Shown here: positions 49,894 to 57,382 of the stretch, in pieces
How positions within the stretch are numbered: the stretch's first letter is position 1
Layout of the letters: each line of letters starts with the position of its first letter
From: a virus
Taxonomy: Duplodnaviria > Caudoviricetes
Direction: 5' to 3' (one strand)
Virus record (IMG/VR): IMGVR_UViG_3300018430_000021
Coordinates: 160,001 to 224,000 of that record
DNA: 64,000 bases
Program-made: the position numbers and the translations under genes
Notes under the pieces: model-generated
Database searches by the model: none
What the model was told of the DNA's origin: nothing
Seen by the model: the letters and a program-made list of their open reading frames with translations, nothing else

Positions 49894-50490
49894 CTACTTG
49901 TGTTTGATAGGTTCTTTATAATGATGTACTTCAACAGTTTTCTTAACCGTATCTACGATGAGTAAATCCAGATTGGAAAACTTAAAACCCTTGGAGTTAA
50001 TAACGTCATAAGCACTAATTCCCGGATTTCCGGTCATATAGTGATAGATATAACGAATTAACATTCCATGAGAAATAGCAATTACAGCATTCGTGTTATT
50101 TTCGTGACGAATGTCGTTTCCCATATCATGCAAGACAATCTTGGCACGTTTTTCCATCGTAGAAGCTGGAAGGAAAACTAGCCGATTGAATTCTTCTTCT
50201 GTAATTTCCCAGAACTTTTTGTTTCCGAGAGCCTTGCATTCGAATTCTCCAAGACTCTTGGTCACTTCGCACGGAAAACGGTCAAAAAGAAGTTTTGCCG
50301 TGCTGATGCATCGTTTTGTAGGAGAACTGACAATAACCTTCCTGTCTTCTTCAGGAATAAACTTGCCAACACAATCTTCCCAATCGTCCGGCTTGTCATA
50401 AAGGTTAATATCCGAGTTTTCATATCCGGCAATCATCGAACCAGAGAGGTTTGCCGAAGTCGGTGCATGTCTGATGAAATAGAATTTCAA
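49894..50490 (-). CDS. Histidine phosphatase (phosphoglycerate mutase family)
   Basis: FIRHAPT, SSPTKRCISTA, LGE and ISHG motifs. Confidence 0.88.
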   Translation of the reverse strand: MKFYFIRHAPTSANLSGSMIAGYENSDINLYDKPDDWEDCVGKFIPEEDRKVIVSSPTKRCISTAKLLFDRFPCEVTKSLGEFECKALGNKKFWEITEEEFNRLVFLPASTMEKRAKIVLHDMGNDIRHENNTNAVIAISHGMLIRYIYHYMTGNPGISAYDVINSKGFKFSNLDLLIVDTVKKTVEVHHYKEPIKHK

Positions 50491-53742: not shown

Positions 53743-53747
53743 TATAG

Positions 53748-53829
53748 CGGAAGATGAGTGACTCGAACACCCAAGCCATGACGGCGGCAACGTTCGAAAT
53801 TGCTGGCTTACCAATTAGCCTAATCTTCC
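53748..53829 (-). tRNA. tRNA-Ser(CGA)
   Basis: GGAAGAT/ATCTTCC acceptor, GCAAT-TTCGAAC-GTTGC anticodon arm, long V arm, TTCGAGT T loop. Confidence 0.9.
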
Positions 53830-53834
53830 ATTAG

Positions 53835-53926
53835 AAGAGGTGGTAGGATTCGAACCCACGGCCCGGGATGATTACCGGATCACTGGAGTTCAAATCCAGC
53901 GCCATAAACCGCTCGGCCACACCTCC
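53835..53926 (-). tRNA. tRNA-Ser(TGA)
   Basis: GGAGGTG/CACCTCT acceptor, CTGGA-TTTGAAC-TCCAG anticodon arm, long V arm, TTCGAAT T loop. Confidence 0.9.
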
Positions 53927-53935
53927 GAAATTTAG

Positions 53936-54021
53936 CTGAGGATGAAAGACTCGAACTTTCAAGCAGATTACTCCACGGCGGCCTTCCAAGCCACTCCCTT
54001 ACCAATTAGGGTTAATCCTCA
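53936..54021 (-). tRNA. tRNA-Ser(GGA)
   Basis: TGAGGAT/ATCCTCA acceptor, GTGGC-TTGGAAG-GCCGC anticodon arm, long V arm. Confidence 0.9.
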
Positions 54022-54025
54022 AAAT

Positions 54026-54184
54026 GAATACATGCAATGTTTTATACTGACGAGACTCGAACTCGCTTCATACGAATTGTAATTGGCATTTGCAAGAGTA
54101 TCTACCAATAAACGTACCCTTTCCTGATACTTTCGGACGCACGTTCTCTCCTACCTTGATCCAATATAGAGCACGCACATATTC
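54026..54184 (-). ncRNA. tRNA-mimic ncRNA (acceptor-like stem + T arm, large insert, extended closing stem)
   Basis: TATATTG/CAGTATA stem stacked on GCGAG-TTCGAGT-CTCGT. Outer stem GAATATGTGC/GCATGTATTC. Confidence 0.6.
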
Positions 54185-54188
54185 TTAG

Positions 54189-54265
54189 TCGGCAACATAG
54201 GACTTGAACCTACATGTAACCATTTACTCTTTCTACGCCTTATCAGAGCGAGGAGATAGATGCCG
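54189..54265 (-). tRNA. Non-canonical tRNA-Ile(GAT)-like RNA, copy 1
   Basis: Acceptor CGGCATC/GTTGCCG, CGCT-CTGATAA-GGCG anticodon arm, GTAGG-TTCAAGT-CCTAT T arm. No D arm in the normal position. Confidence 0.7.
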
Positions 54266-54276
54266 ATAATATTTAG

Positions 54277-54353
54277 TCGGTATCATAGGAATTGAACCTA
54301 CATGCAACCAATTACCCTTTCGACGCCTTATCAGAGCGAGGGGATAGATACCG
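54277..54353 (-). tRNA. Non-canonical tRNA-Ile(GAT)-like RNA, copy 2
   Basis: Acceptor CGGTATC/GATACCG, same anticodon arm, GTAGG-TTCAATT-CCTAT T arm. Covaries with copy 1. Confidence 0.7.
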
Positions 54354-54420
54354 ATAGATATTGACATTTTTCAGTGATCCAGTTATTGGCTTAGATATGT
54401 CCAATGTCAATAATTTTTAG

Positions 54421-54494
54421 TCCCGGAGGTTGGGCTCGAACCAACGACCTTTTGATTATGATTCAAACGCTCTAACCAGCTGAGCTACTCCGGG
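54421..54494 (-). tRNA. tRNA(CAT): elongator Met or Ile2
   Basis: CCCGGAG/CTCCGGG acceptor, GCTC D stem, TTTGA-ATCATAA-TCAAA anticodon arm, TTCGAGC T loop. Confidence 0.9.
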
Positions 54495-54497
54495 AAA

Positions 54498-54559
54498 ATA
54501 GCGAGAAGTATATATTACGGATTTAAAGTCCGTTTTTATATAGGAACTTCTTTTGCTAT
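54498..54559 (-). ncRNA. Conserved-stem hairpin RNA A
   Basis: ATAGCAAAAGAAGTTCCTAT...ACTTCTCGCTAT with apical ACGGA-CTTTAAA-TCCGT. Confidence 0.55.
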
Positions 54560-54569
54560 TAAACTTTTT

Positions 54570-54656
54570 ATAGCGGGATGTAATCGCCATACGGCTTCGG
54601 ATTTGAACCGATAAGGCATGTGAGCCTATTACCAAAATAGGAACATCCTATGCTAT
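54570..54656 (-). ncRNA. Conserved-stem RNA B with T-arm-like hairpin
   Basis: ATAGCATAGGATGTTCCTAT...ACATCCCGCTAT, containing TCGG-TTCAAAT-CCGA. Confidence 0.55.
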
Positions 54657-54660
54657 GTAG

Positions 54661-54750
54661 AGCTATCTGCAGGATTCGAACCTGCGACGGGGATTTTATC
54701 CACAGCGGAGTTGCAGTCCGCTACCTTCGACCGCTCGGTTACAAGACAGC
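54661..54750 (-). tRNA. tRNA-Cys(GCA) with long variable arm
   Basis: GCTGTCT/AGATAGC acceptor, U73, GCGGA-CTGCAAC-TCCGC anticodon arm, GGAT-AAA-ATCC V arm, GCAGG-TTCGAAT-CCTGC T arm. Confidence 0.85.
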
Positions 54751-54761
54751 TTAATTTTAAA

Positions 54762-54885
54762 TTCCACCGCGTGCTTTTACCGAAGAGCCCGCGAAAACTT
54801 CAGTGGCCTACCACCTTGTTGTTTCATACTAAACACGACCGCTGTTTTAAGGCCGCAGCCTTTTTCGCACAGCGTCACGGCGAAC
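54762..54885 (-). ncRNA. GC-rich structured ncRNA of unknown family
   Basis: Nested stems TTCGCCGTG/CGCGGTGGA and GCGAAAA/TTTTCGC enclosing three hairpins. Confidence 0.5.
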
Positions 54886-54893
54886 TATTTTCG

Positions 54894-54980
54894 TGCTAGC
54901 TAAGGGAGTCGAACCCCTGTTGTTAACTCGTAAGAGACGTGATCTACAGTCACGCGCAATCGCCACTCTGCCAAACTAGC
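54894..54980 (-). tRNA. tRNA-Tyr(GTA)
   Basis: GCTAGTT/AGCTAGC acceptor, CGTGA-CTGTAGA-TCACG anticodon arm, long V arm. Confidence 0.88.
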
Positions 54981-54987
54981 ATTTTAG

Positions 54988-55072
54988 TGACAGCGGTAGG
55001 ACTCGAACCTACGGAAGCTCGTTAGAGCGGGAGGGTTACAGCCTCCAGGAATTGCCGCTATCCGACACTGCC
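54988..55072 (-). tRNA. tRNA-Tyr(GTA)
   Basis: GGCAGTG/CGCTGTC acceptor, GGAGG-CTGTAAC-CCTCC anticodon arm, long V arm. Confidence 0.9.
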
Positions 55073-56582: not shown

Positions 56583-57002
56583 CTAGAACATCTGGCCGAC
56601 AGCTTCGATATAGATTTCGAACCAGTATTTATCTTGTTCATCCTTTCTCAGCTTAACGATGAGTTTCGGAGAGATGATTTCCGGATTATCTTCCAATAAG
56701 TACATGTTGACTTCTTCGGTCAATATTCCTGCATCATCGTAATAGGTATTATTTTCCAGATGTTCTGTTTCGTCATATTGCCAGTTACTTTCGTATTTCT
56801 CGATAAGGTCTGTACAGACTTTATATATTACTTCGAGAAGCGAACCTGCGGAAACCGGATCCTCGTCTGTACCTGACCATTGCAGTTTAAGCCTACGGGC
56901 CAAATCAACCGCACTGTCAAGTTCAAAAGCTTCTACGGATTCAATCAATATGTTATGCCATTTATTCCAATCAATAGTCATGTTAACCTCGGTTTTCTCC
57001 AA
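56583..57002 (-). CDS. Acidic hypothetical protein
   Basis: 139-aa ORF in the early operon. Confidence 0.6.
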   Translation of the reverse strand: MEKTEVNMTIDWNKWHNILIESVEAFELDSAVDLARRLKLQWSGTDEDPVSAGSLLEVIYKVCTDLIEKYESNWQYDETEHLENNTYYDDAGILTEEVNMYLLEDNPEIISPKLIVKLRKDEQDKYWFEIYIEAVGQMF

Positions 57003-57382
57003 ACCATATGTCCGTCTTCTTCTTCGACGAACCTTCTTTTTTCATAAAATATTTTGCTTTCTGGTAATGTCGTAAGGTCGATATAATTATGGTCTTCCTT
57101 CAGTCGGTCAATCATTTTTCTTCCGATGGATTCACAACGGTTATTCGGATGTACTTCGAGAGAATATACATGTATATTTTCAGGAGTTCTTTCTTCGAAT
57201 ATCATAATGGCCAACGGATGTGTTACTTCCTGACTGATAAGGAACCTGATAACGATACCTTCTGTATCTATAAATTGTTTAGCACATTTAAAGGATAACG
57301 GAAAACTGTCCGGGTCTATAAGGCCCAGGCATTCCCTAGTAAACGGAAGGTCTTTCAAATATCGCATATTACGGTTTATCAA
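56978..57382 (-). CDS. GNAT-family acetyltransferase
   Basis: HVYSLEVHPNNRCESIGRKMI (motif A) and SKIFYEKRRF (motif B). Confidence 0.8.
   Translation of the reverse strand: MINRNMRYLKDLPFTRECLGLIDPDSFPLSFKCAKQFIDTEGIVIRFLISQEVTHPLAIMIFEERTPENIHVYSLEVHPNNRCESIGRKMIDRLKEDHNYIDLTTLPESKIFYEKRRFVEEEDGHMVWRKPRLT

What the first reader, a model, noticed from the sequence alone, without database searches (positions are those of the whole stretch)
54189..54353. Tandem non-canonical tRNA-Ile(GAT)-like genes with the D-loop motif placed after the anticodon arm
Seen: two 77-nt copies, each with a normal top half (7-bp acceptor, A73, 5-bp T arm with TTCAAGT/TTCAATT). The acceptor 5' strand runs directly into an extended helix TATCYC..CGCT-CTGATAA-GGCG..GAAA-GRGTA with no D arm. 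A D-loop-like TAA(A/T)TGGTT (compare CTAATTGGTAA in neighbouring Ser tRNAs) then lies 3' of the anticodon arm, in the variable position. Compensatory changes between copies (C-G vs T-A in the acceptor; CTC/GAG vs CCC/GGG) show the fold is under selection. The leader has four ATT/ATC codons and the array has no canonical Ile(GAT) tRNA, which suggests these work as decoders. Inference: a topologically rewired L-shaped tRNA that may evade host tRNA nucleases, or a nuclease decoy. Standard tRNA scanners would probably miss it or call it pseudo.
Basis: partly seen in the sequence, partly recalled or inferred. Interest (0 to 1): 0.85.

Follow-up and report, generated by a model that had tools for sequence, protein, structure and literature searches.

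The report
Rewired non-cloverleaf phage isoleucine tRNAs
Two neighbouring 77-base genes in a giant phage's tRNA cluster very probably encode isoleucine tRNAs that keep every standard tRNA part but join the parts in a different order; hundreds of phages share this layout, gene finders miss it, and I found no paper describing it.

Summary
On the minus strand, 54353-54277 and 54265-54189 are two 77-nt tRNA-like genes. ARAGORN misses both, and both fall below Rfam's tRNA threshold.

They belong to a large family: I found 213 copies in 203 viral contigs. The family also occurs, unannotated, in cultured Streptomyces phages and in a crAss-like Bacteroides phage. It was absent from isolate bacterial genomes among 185,579 species representatives.

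Covariation supports four helices (97.6% of cells paired; score 0.725 against 0.186 for shuffles). It also supports a 15:48-like tertiary pair. The layout is a canonical tRNA-Ile in which block 10-21 (the 5' D-stem strand plus the D loop) has moved to the 3' side of the anticodon arm. This keeps ten stacked layers and the conserved U8, A14, G18G19, G10-C25 and G45.

Every anticodon seen is GAU, UAU or CAU. The rewired genes complement the canonical Ile isoacceptors in the same arrays. In a complete 415-kb relative, Ile is the only amino acid with no ARAGORN-called tRNA, and the rewired pair fills that gap.

Best reading: working Ile decoders charged by the host IleRS (about 0.75). Expression, charging and any anti-nuclease role are untested. 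Other agents of this scan reported the same family on other genomes.

The parts
54277..54353 (-). Rewired tRNA-Ile(GAU) gene, copy A (77 nt, no encoded CCA; followed by CTAA)
   Evidence: Sequence. Model R1 scores it 93.6 bits; it was part of the model's training set. It is 93.5% identical to its orthologue in the complete relative G001, and one of the differences is a compensatory double change in the inner helix.
54189..54265 (-). Rewired tRNA-Ile(GAU) gene, copy B (77 nt; U6.U67 mismatch in the acceptor stem)
   Evidence: (91.8 bits).
54266..54276 (-). 11-nt spacer between the copies (CTAAATATTAT)
54347..54353 (-). Copy A acceptor 5' strand (pairs with 54278-54284); followed by U8 A9 at 54346-54345
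   Evidence: The acceptor pairs covary in the family (all 7 pairs show double changes). U8 and A9 are invariant in 84 of 84.
54341..54343 (-). Copy A D-stem-equivalent helix, 5' strand (positions 23-25, CCC); pairs with 54315-54317 (positions 10-12, GGG)
   Evidence: alignment columns 11-13 with 37-39 are 100% paired, with 4-5 pair types at two of the pairs. G10-C25 is invariant.
54324..54338 (-). Copy A anticodon arm: stem CGCT/GGCG, loop CTGATAA, anticodon GAT at 54332-54330
   Evidence: The stem is 100% paired in the family, and the loop matches the ordinary tRNA-Ile loop.
54318..54323 (-). Copy A junction U43 N44 G45 A A A (TCGAAA) between the anticodon stem and the helix 3' strand
   Evidence: G and AAA are invariant in 84 of 84.
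54302..54314 (-). Copy A transposed D-loop block U13 A14 R15 NN G18 G19 U20 N R21, then C A Y48 (TAATTGGTTG CAT)
   Evidence: A14 84/84, GG 83-84/84, U20 79/84, CA 84/84. R15 and Y48 covary (A-U 42, G-C 26).
54285..54301 (-). Copy A T arm (GTAGG TTCAATT CCTAT)
   Evidence: 99% paired in the family.
54236..54250 (-). Copy B anticodon arm, anticodon GAT at 54244-54242
54217..54226 (-). Copy B transposed D-loop block (TAAATGGTTA). The helix strands are at 54253-54255 (CTC) and 54227-54229 (GAG).
54197..54213 (-). Copy B T arm (GTAGG TTCAAGT CCTAT)
53747..55072 (-). The tRNA array that holds the pair: Tyr, Tyr, Cys, Met, [Ile, Ile], Ser, Ser, Ser
   Evidence: ARAGORN and Rfam. Promoter-like sites lie at 55218-55142 and a terminator-like hairpin at 53743-53720, both on the minus strand (consensus matches only).

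Best explanation
Both genes encode functional elongator tRNA-Ile(GAU) molecules with a non-cloverleaf chain order.

In standard tRNA numbering the chain runs: 1-7, U8, A9, [22-25, 26, anticodon arm 27-43, 44, G45, AAA], [G10-U13, D loop A14-R21], C, A, Y48, T arm, 66-72, A73. In other words, block 10-21 has moved from the 5' side to the 3' side of the anticodon arm.

The D stem still forms (G10-C25, 11-24, 12-23, U13.U22), but the anticodon arm closes it instead of the D loop. The stack from elbow to anticodon still has ten layers, and the partners of the usual tertiary contacts are kept.

Inferred steps, none shown here:
- The RNA folds into the usual L shape.
- It is cut out of the array transcript by RNase P and 3' processing.
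- It receives CCA.
- It is charged by the host IleRS.
- It reads the phage's AUU and AUC codons.

Why phages keep this wiring is unknown. Escape from some tRNA-directed host or phage enzyme is one possibility.
For: Structure:
- Covariation supports all four helices and a 15:48-like pair.
- RNAalifold predicts the same helices independently.
- U8, A9, G10-C25, G45, A14 and G19 are invariant, and G18 is present in 83/84.
- The layer count (4+1+5) equals that of a canonical tRNA (read from alignment A1).

Decoding:
- A scan that did not fix the anticodon found 130 distinct members with only GAT (78), TAT (49) and CAT (3), the three Ile anticodons.
- Neighbouring canonical Ile genes are complementary. 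Next to a rewired GAT the canonical gene is TAT in 44 loci and GAT in 14. Next to a rewired TAT or CAT it is GAT in 17 and TAT in 1 (Fisher p=1e-7, not corrected for relatedness).
- The complete 415,750-bp relative G001 has 47 ARAGORN tRNAs for 19 amino acids. Only Ile is missing, and its rewired pair sits at 309140-309303.
- The window's own 291-kb record has 42 ARAGORN tRNAs, none of them Ile. None of the extra RF00005 matches I read carries a GAU loop.
- Ile makes up 7.4% of codons in long ORFs, and AUU plus AUC make up 6.0%.

Identity elements:
- A73 is present in 83/84 members. U33, A37 and A38 are kept, and U20 is present in 79/84. These are bacterial IleRS determinants according to PMC9976931.
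- Arg-anticodon genes with the same wiring carry A20, the ArgRS determinant.

Other:
- No class Ia synthetase (Pfam PF00133, the family that holds IleRS) is encoded in four genomes that carry the family, so the host enzyme would have to charge the tRNA.
- G001 encodes a protein with a CCA-adding-type domain.
- The next base after A73 is C in 82/84 members.
- Against the orthologue in G001, copy A changed only at loop or junction positions or by a compensatory pair.
Against: - There is no evidence of transcription, processing, CCA addition or aminoacylation.
- No 3D model was made; the L shape is inferred from conserved partners.
- Some minor E. coli IleRS determinants are not kept: U12-A23 and C29-G41 vary.
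- Positions 27 and 43 form a conserved U.U, so the anticodon stem has only four Watson-Crick pairs.
- Copy B has a U.U mismatch in the acceptor stem.
- The complementarity statistic treats related phages as independent.
- 14 loci carry both a rewired and a canonical GAU gene, so the rewired form is not always the sole reader.
Confidence: 0.75

Rival explanations
1. The RNA is a tRNA mimic rather than a decoder. It imitates tRNA-Ile towards a protein (a defence nuclease, IleRS, a modification enzyme or a toxin acting on Ile-tRNA) and soaks it up or regulates it without being used on the ribosome.
For: - The anticodon loop and acceptor end are kept while the core is unusual.
- Defence nucleases that cut tRNA-Ile(GAU) among other tRNAs exist (HepS, PMC13043305).
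- 14 loci carry a canonical GAU gene as well.
Against: - A decoy would not need three different Ile anticodons distributed to complement the canonical isoacceptors.
- It would not need to be the only Ile species in an otherwise complete 47-tRNA set.
- The T arm, the 7/5 acceptor/T lengths, A73 and the following C, and the ten-layer anticodon limb are all kept as translation needs them.
Confidence: 0.12
2. The genes are working Ile decoders, and in addition the rewiring is an anti-defence adaptation. The changed core connectivity makes the phage tRNA a poor substrate for a host (or phage) nuclease or modifying enzyme that reads the D arm or the elbow, while IleRS, EF-Tu and the ribosome still accept it.
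For: - The family was found only in viral contigs and in MAG contigs, and never in isolate genomes among 185,579 species.
- It is spread over unrelated phage groups: Streptomyces siphophages, Crassvirales and giant phages.
- Phage tRNAs that escape anticodon nucleases through loop changes are documented (PMC10264068, abstract).
Against: - No enzyme is identified.
- The anticodon loop, the usual nuclease target, is unchanged.
- No conserved protein neighbour was seen.
- This is an inference only.
Confidence: 0.3
3. The primary transcript is a precursor that is cut and rejoined (or edited) into the canonical order, as happens with permuted or split tRNA genes.
For: Permuted tRNA genes processed through circular intermediates exist in some algae and archaea (my own knowledge).
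Against: - The acceptor strands already lie at the two ends, so circularisation cannot restore the standard order.
- Swapping two internal blocks would need two cuts and two ligations.
- No bulge-helix-bulge motif is present.
- The helix that encloses the anticodon arm covaries, which implies that the unrearranged fold is the one selected.
Confidence: 0.03
4. The genes are decayed tRNA pseudogenes or chance tRNA-like sequence.
For: Scanners do not call them.
Against: - There are 213 copies in 203 loci with compensatory changes in every helix.
- The orthologue comparison shows changes only at tolerated positions.
Confidence: 0.01

Closest known systems
Canonical bacterial and phage tRNA-Ile (GAU, UAU, k2C-AU isoacceptors; Rfam RF00005)
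   Same: - 7-bp acceptor stem, A73, 5-bp T stem and UUCRANU T loop.
- CUGAUAA anticodon loop.
- D-loop motif A14 R15 NN G18 G19 U20 N R21 of normal length.
- G10-C25, G45, the R15:Y48 covariation and a ten-layer anticodon limb.
- The same three anticodons.
   Different: - The order of the blocks along the chain differs: 10-21 lies after 44-47 instead of before 22.
- There is no D hairpin.
- The variable region is split (N G A A A ... C A Y48).
- 27.43 is U.U.
- The genes score below the RF00005 cut-off and ARAGORN does not call them.
D-arm-lacking mitochondrial tRNAs (for example metazoan mt tRNA-Ser(AGY))
   Same: In both, the secondary structure shows three arms, with an extended anticodon-side helix starting right after the acceptor stem.
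   Different: - The mitochondrial forms have lost the D stem and the G18G19 elbow contacts. They have a replacement loop 5' of the anticodon arm and work with adapted mitochondrial factors (PMC4013460 abstract).
- Here the D stem and all D-loop motifs are kept and only moved, and the setting is bacterial translation.
Circularly permuted and split tRNA genes (Cyanidioschyzon merolae, some archaea) - my own knowledge
   Same: The gene order of tRNA parts differs from the order in the standard cloverleaf.
   Different: In those cases the gene is permuted at the termini and processing restores a normal cloverleaf. Here the termini are normal and two internal blocks are exchanged, so the mature RNA itself would be non-cloverleaf.
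Other natural non-canonical tRNAs: tRNA-Sec, allo-tRNAs (8/4, 9/3), tRNA-Pyl (review PMC7609411; PMC5389517)
   Same: They are working tRNAs that depart from the standard cloverleaf, and some are found in phages.
   Different: Those change arm lengths but keep the order of the arms. The review's section list holds no class with reordered arms.
Laboratory evolution of E. coli to use a D-arm-lacking tRNA (PMC11551756)
   Same: It shows that bacterial translation can use a tRNA with a non-canonical fold.
   Different: That system is engineered. [quoted passage not shown] The family here would be a natural counter-example used by phages.

Membership tests
Canonical cloverleaf tRNA (Rfam RF00005) | 7-bp acceptor stem with a discriminator base | tested here: met
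   columns 1-7 with 71-77 are 94.7% paired and all 7 pairs covary. A73 is present in 83/84.
Canonical cloverleaf tRNA (Rfam RF00005) | 5-bp T stem with a 7-nt T loop (UUCRANY) | tested here: met
   99% paired; G53-C61 is invariant.
Canonical cloverleaf tRNA (Rfam RF00005) | Anticodon stem-loop with a 7-nt loop, U33 and a purine at 37 | tested here: met
   The loop is CTNATAA or CTNATAC in 83 of the 84 aligned members. The stem has four Watson-Crick pairs plus a conserved U27.U43.
Canonical cloverleaf tRNA (Rfam RF00005) | A D stem-loop hairpin between position 9 and the anticodon arm (arm order acceptor, D, anticodon, variable, T) | tested here: not met
   the only helix after position 9 encloses the anticodon arm, and the D-loop motif lies 3' of it.
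Canonical cloverleaf tRNA (Rfam RF00005) | Score at or above the family's gathering score (29 bits) | tested here: not met
   No match. Copy A scores 25.0 bits and copy B is not listed. Relatives score 30.8 bits (Jay2Jay) and 24.5 bits (tikkala).
Canonical cloverleaf tRNA (Rfam RF00005) | Mature 3' CCA and aminoacylation | not testable with these tools
   CCA is not encoded in the window copies (ACTA). It is encoded in 7 of 84 members. No read data could be obtained.
   both window copies match at every fixed position.
   93.6 and 91.8 bits, against at most 26 bits for canonical tRNAs. The window copies and close copies of the other top hits were in the training alignment, so the high scores are partly by construction. 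The gap to canonical tRNAs is the informative part.
   Both copies have GAT. All 130 members from the scan that did not fix the anticodon have an Ile anticodon.
D-arm-lacking mitochondrial-type tRNA | Loss of the D stem and of the G18G19 elbow motif | tested here: not met
   The helix equivalent to 10-12/23-25 is 100% paired and covaries. GG is present in 83-84 of 84.
Circularly permuted tRNA gene | The 3' half is encoded upstream of the 5' half, so the acceptor strands are internal to the gene | tested here: not met
   The acceptor strands are the first and last 7 nt of the unit.

The most novel reading that the evidence does not exclude
Bacterial translation naturally uses tRNAs that are not cloverleaves. 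Phages carry isoleucine (and arginine) tRNAs whose core blocks are exchanged but which still fold into the L shape, are charged by host synthetases and decode. On this reading the rewiring persists because it makes these tRNAs invisible to a tRNA-directed defence or shut-off enzyme that reads the D-arm connectivity.
Probability: 0.3. Interest if true: 0.92.

Novelty: new variant of a known kind. Interest (0 to 1): 0.85.

Why it matters
- The cloverleaf arm order is treated as universal for bacterial tRNAs. One 2024 paper states that all known bacterial tRNAs adopt it (PMC11551756).
- A widespread natural family with exchanged core blocks would show that RNase P, the CCA-adding enzyme, IleRS, EF-Tu and the ribosome tolerate a different chain topology, provided the three-dimensional contacts are kept.
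- It would explain some apparent gaps for Ile (and some for Arg) in phage tRNA sets, and it exposes a blind spot in tRNA annotation: ARAGORN called 1 of 213 copies.
- It offers natural scaffolds for orthogonal tRNA design.
- It raises the question of what selects for this wiring in phages only.
- Cultured carriers exist (Streptomyces cluster phages such as Jay2Jay, and Kehishuvirus 'tikkala' on Bacteroides), so the claim can be tested directly.

Tried and rejected
- **Plus-strand reading.** Rejected. The G.U pairs of the minus-strand fold become A.C on the plus strand, and the array is on the minus strand.
- **The 44-codon ORF at 54233-54367 (minus strand) that overlaps the genes.** Treated as spurious.
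- **Rfam at E up to 10.** No family covers the genes. The only match is a 17-bit 'Plastid-ycf2' hit on the opposite strand.
- **A canonical fold with the 23-nt hairpin as an insert in the D loop.** This is the same secondary structure under another name. It leaves no anticodon arm in the usual place, so I did not prefer it.
- **Ralstonia phage RsoM2USA.** It is published as having tRNAs for all amino acids except Ile (PMC8504454). Model R1 finds no member there, only canonical tRNAs at 23-26 bits, so that gap is not explained by this family.
- **A phage-encoded IleRS.** None is present in G000, G001, Jay2Jay or tikkala.
- **Sequencing runs for expression evidence.** I made no other attempt, and read laying was not used.
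- **Putting the blocks back into canonical order in silico and rescoring.** Not done. I compared natural sequences only.
- **Literature.** Seven full-text searches and one review outline found no description of this layout. The library lacks most subscription-journal papers, so absence is not proof.

Full report
**What is there**

The window is G000:C1:160001-224000 of a 291-kb IMG/VR phage record that CheckV rates 70% complete. Its GC content is 38.7%. A tRNA array lies on the minus strand at 55072-53747.

Read on that strand, 54353-54277 (copy A) and 54265-54189 (copy B) are two 77-nt units separated by 11 nt. Each unit has:
- a 7-bp acceptor stem and discriminator A;
- a 5-bp T stem with a TTCAAKT loop;
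- a stem-loop carrying CTGATAA.

There is no D hairpin. After the acceptor stem come T, A, T. A 3-bp helix then encloses the anticodon stem-loop. After that helix comes a D-loop-like run (T A A N T G G T T R), then C A T, then the T arm.

ARAGORN calls neither copy. Rfam reports nothing there at its thresholds or at E up to 10.

**It is a large family**

From these I extracted 213 copies in 203 loci, and ARAGORN calls only one of them.

The consensus is: acceptor, TAT NNC CT CNNN, loop, NNNG TN GAAA GNN TA R NN GG T N R CA Y, T arm, acceptor, A, C.

A BLAST search of GenBank phages found the family, unannotated in all but one phage (EGole, whose records show 'tRNA-Leu' under the match), in 40 records of Streptomyces phages (Jay2Jay, Peebs, NootNoot and others). 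It also found it in the crAss-like Kehishuvirus 'tikkala' of Bacteroides cellulosilyticus and in two uncultured gut phages. In tikkala the element fills a 90-nt unannotated gap between tRNA-Trp and tRNA-Met.

The same anticodon-free pattern in one genome for each of 185,579 prokaryote species gave only 18 true members. All 18 are in MAG contigs and none is in an isolate genome. Two of these contigs have the same length as IMG/VR phage contigs that carry an identical element. The family therefore looks phage-specific. This is an inference, since one strict pattern was used.

**Structure**

I aligned 84 distinct members (A1). The retrieval patterns did not fix any of the covarying positions, except the anticodon stem in two of the scans.
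- The proposed structure has 97.6% of cells paired.
- The covariation score is 0.725, against 0.186 for shuffles (0 of 500 reach it) and at most 0.12 for slid controls.
- The inner helix (columns 11-13 with 37-39) and the anticodon stem are 100% paired, with up to five pair types.
- RNAalifold, given no structure, predicts the same four helices, and 16 of its 19 pairs show double changes.
- A purine after the invariant T-A and a pyrimidine just before the T stem covary (A-U 42, G-C 26, other 12). This is the pattern of the 15:48 Levitt pair.

**Mapping to a standard tRNA**

The chain can be numbered as 1-7, U8, A9, U22 N23 N24 C25, C26, U27 C28 N N N31, loop 32-38, N39 N N G42 U43, N44, G45, A A A, G10 N11 N12 U13, A14 R15 N N G18 G19 U20 N R21, C A, Y48, 49-65, 66-72, A73. 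With this numbering every block has the length and the conserved letters of an ordinary tRNA-Ile. Only blocks 10-21 and 22-47 have changed places.

The following are invariant in 84 of 84 members: U8, A9, A14, G19, G10-C25, G45, the AAA run and the CA. G18 is present in 83 of 84.

The stack from the top of the D-stem equivalent to the anticodon loop has 4+1+5 layers, as in a canonical tRNA. U8 and A14 could pair either as the usual tertiary pair or as a Watson-Crick extension of the helix with U22 bulged. Both positions are invariant, so the data cannot decide between these.

That this chain can close into the L shape is my inference from the known tRNA structure. There, 45 lies next to 10-25, 8-14 stacks on 13-22, and 21 lies next to 8-14 and 48. 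No 3D model was made.

**Evidence that the genes decode isoleucine**

1. In the anticodon-free scan, all 130 distinct members have GAT (78), TAT (49) or CAT (3). No other anticodon occurs.
2. In arrays that also hold a canonical Ile gene, the two forms are complementary. A rewired GAT sits with a canonical TAT in 44 loci and with GAT in 14. A rewired TAT or CAT sits with a canonical GAT in 17 loci and with TAT in 1 (Fisher p=1e-7). Related phages are counted as independent, so the p value is only indicative.
3. G001 is a 415,750-bp relative with terminal repeats, rated 100% complete, and it carries the same tandem pair (93.5% identity). It has 47 ARAGORN tRNAs for 19 amino acids, and Ile alone is missing. 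None of its other RF00005 matches has a GAU loop.
4. The window's own record has 42 ARAGORN tRNAs, none for Ile, and none of the further RF00005 matches I read carries a GAU loop. Yet Ile makes up 7.4% of its codons, and AUU plus AUC make up 6.0%.
5. Bacterial IleRS determinants listed in PMC9976931 are kept: A73, the anticodon, A37, A38 and U20. The minor stem determinants U12-A23 and C29-G41 are not conserved.
6. None of four carrier genomes encodes a class Ia synthetase, so a host enzyme must do the charging. G001 encodes a protein with a CCA-adding-type domain. Most members lack an encoded CCA but keep C after A73 in 82 of 84.
7. Copy A differs from its G001 orthologue at five positions. 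Two of them form a compensatory C-G to U-A change in the inner helix, and the other three lie in loops or junctions.

**A sister group with arginine anticodons**

Other agents of this scan reported that the same wiring occurs in Arg tRNAs. I checked this with a structural descriptor on the loci I held. Seven further genes have the same block order with anticodons TCT (five), ACG and TCG.

Their transposed D-loop motif reads TAAYTGGA. This puts A at position 20, the main determinant for bacterial ArgRS (PMC9976931), whereas the Ile genes have U20. The fact that each group keeps the D-loop letter its own synthetase reads supports the idea that the moved block occupies the usual place in 3D.

The window's genome has a probable member of this Arg group at G000:C1:271356-271435 on the minus strand (anticodon ACG). 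It lies outside the window, and its inner helix is weak.

**What is not shown, and the rival readings**

Nothing here shows transcription, processing, CCA addition, charging or use on the ribosome.

- A pure decoy is hard to reconcile with the anticodon spectrum and with the gap-filling, but it is not excluded.
Defence nucleases that cut tRNA-Ile(GAU) exist (HepS, PMC13043305), but they read the anticodon, which is unchanged here.
- Processing back to the canonical order is unlikely, because the unrearranged fold covaries and the termini are normal.
- The covariation excludes pseudogenes.

**Comparison with what is known**

The closest relatives are ordinary tRNA-Ile genes. The new genes fail the cloverleaf's arm-order criterion and fall below the RF00005 cut-off, so I describe them as a new variant of tRNA rather than as members of the Rfam family as it is defined.

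They are not D-armless in the mitochondrial sense, because the D stem and the GG motif are kept. They are not circularly permuted genes, because the termini are normal. The 2020 review of natural non-canonical tRNAs lists Sec, Sec-like, allo-, Pyl and mitochondrial types only. Seven full-text searches found no description of this layout. Several agents of this scan found the same family on other genomes within the past few days; these are unchecked notes that agree with my reading.

**Verdict**

The feature is real and conserved. It is very probably a pair of working isoleucine tRNAs with exchanged core blocks. The reason for the rewiring is open.

Noticed in passing
window 54660-54750 (-): The tRNA-Cys(GCA) is 91 nt long and has a long variable arm. 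It also has mismatches at the inner end of the acceptor stem (RF00005 36.5 bits). It is 93% identical to a gene in the complete relative G001. A class-II-like Cys tRNA is unusual.
   Followed up: partly
window 54022-54188 (-): This is a 167-nt gap between tRNA-Ser(GGA) and Ile copy B. It holds a good T arm (GCGAG TTCGAGT CTCGT) whose 3' flank CAGTATA can pair with TATATTG about 130 nt upstream. That would make a tRNA-shaped RNA of about 140 nt with a large insert. BLAST found no match in the loci I held.
   Followed up: partly
window 54495-54659 (-): This 165-nt gap between tRNA-Met and tRNA-Cys contains tRNA-like pieces: a D-arm-like CCTA TTTTGGTAA TAGG, and CGG TTCAAAT CCG. They sit inside a 6-bp closing helix GGATGT/ACATCC, in a non-standard order. 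The 3' part matches L005 at 85%.
   Followed up: no
window 54751-54892 (-): This 142-nt structured spacer between tRNA-Tyr and tRNA-Cys is 79% identical over 104 nt to G001 (L249). Its MFE is -40 kcal/mol.
   Followed up: no
G000:C1:271356-271435 (-), outside the window; homologue at G001:C1:304297-304376: An 80-nt gene with anticodon loop CTACGAA (Arg ACG). It has no D hairpin, and a TAACTGGA motif lies 3' of the anticodon arm. It is probably a member of the rewired Arg group. RF00005 gives it 33.6 bits and ARAGORN is silent. The acceptor and anticodon stems covary between the two phages.
   Followed up: partly
G000:C1:278318-278429, 278561-278675, 286516-286628 (-), outside the window; G001:C1:310757-310993: Several 112-117-nt genes have a normal acceptor stem, D arm and T arm but about 50 nt of other sequence where the anticodon arm and variable region should be. 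They share the motif TTCCTAT.
   Followed up: no
G001:C1:369587-369687 (+): A 101-nt gene with a typical tRNA-Ile body. It appears to carry an insert of about 27 nt within a CTTAT...ATAA anticodon loop, so it may be an interrupted Ile(UAU) gene.
   Followed up: no
L002:3650-3813 (-): A class-II-type tRNA with a long variable arm and an encoded CCA. It carries the Ile-like anticodon arm CCGCT CTGATAA GGCGG.
   Followed up: no
L017:3553-3628 (-) and L021: A family member with loop CTTACTG, discriminator G and a shortened D-loop motif that lacks one G. It may be a diverged or disabled copy.
   Followed up: no
window 56978-57382 (-) and 49894-50490 (-): ORFs near the array give a weak GNAT acetyltransferase match (E 4e-4, below the cut-off) and a histidine phosphatase match (E 3.5e-14). 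The eight other flanking ORFs have no significant Pfam match; one has only a sub-threshold FIP-domain hit at E 0.008.
   Followed up: partly
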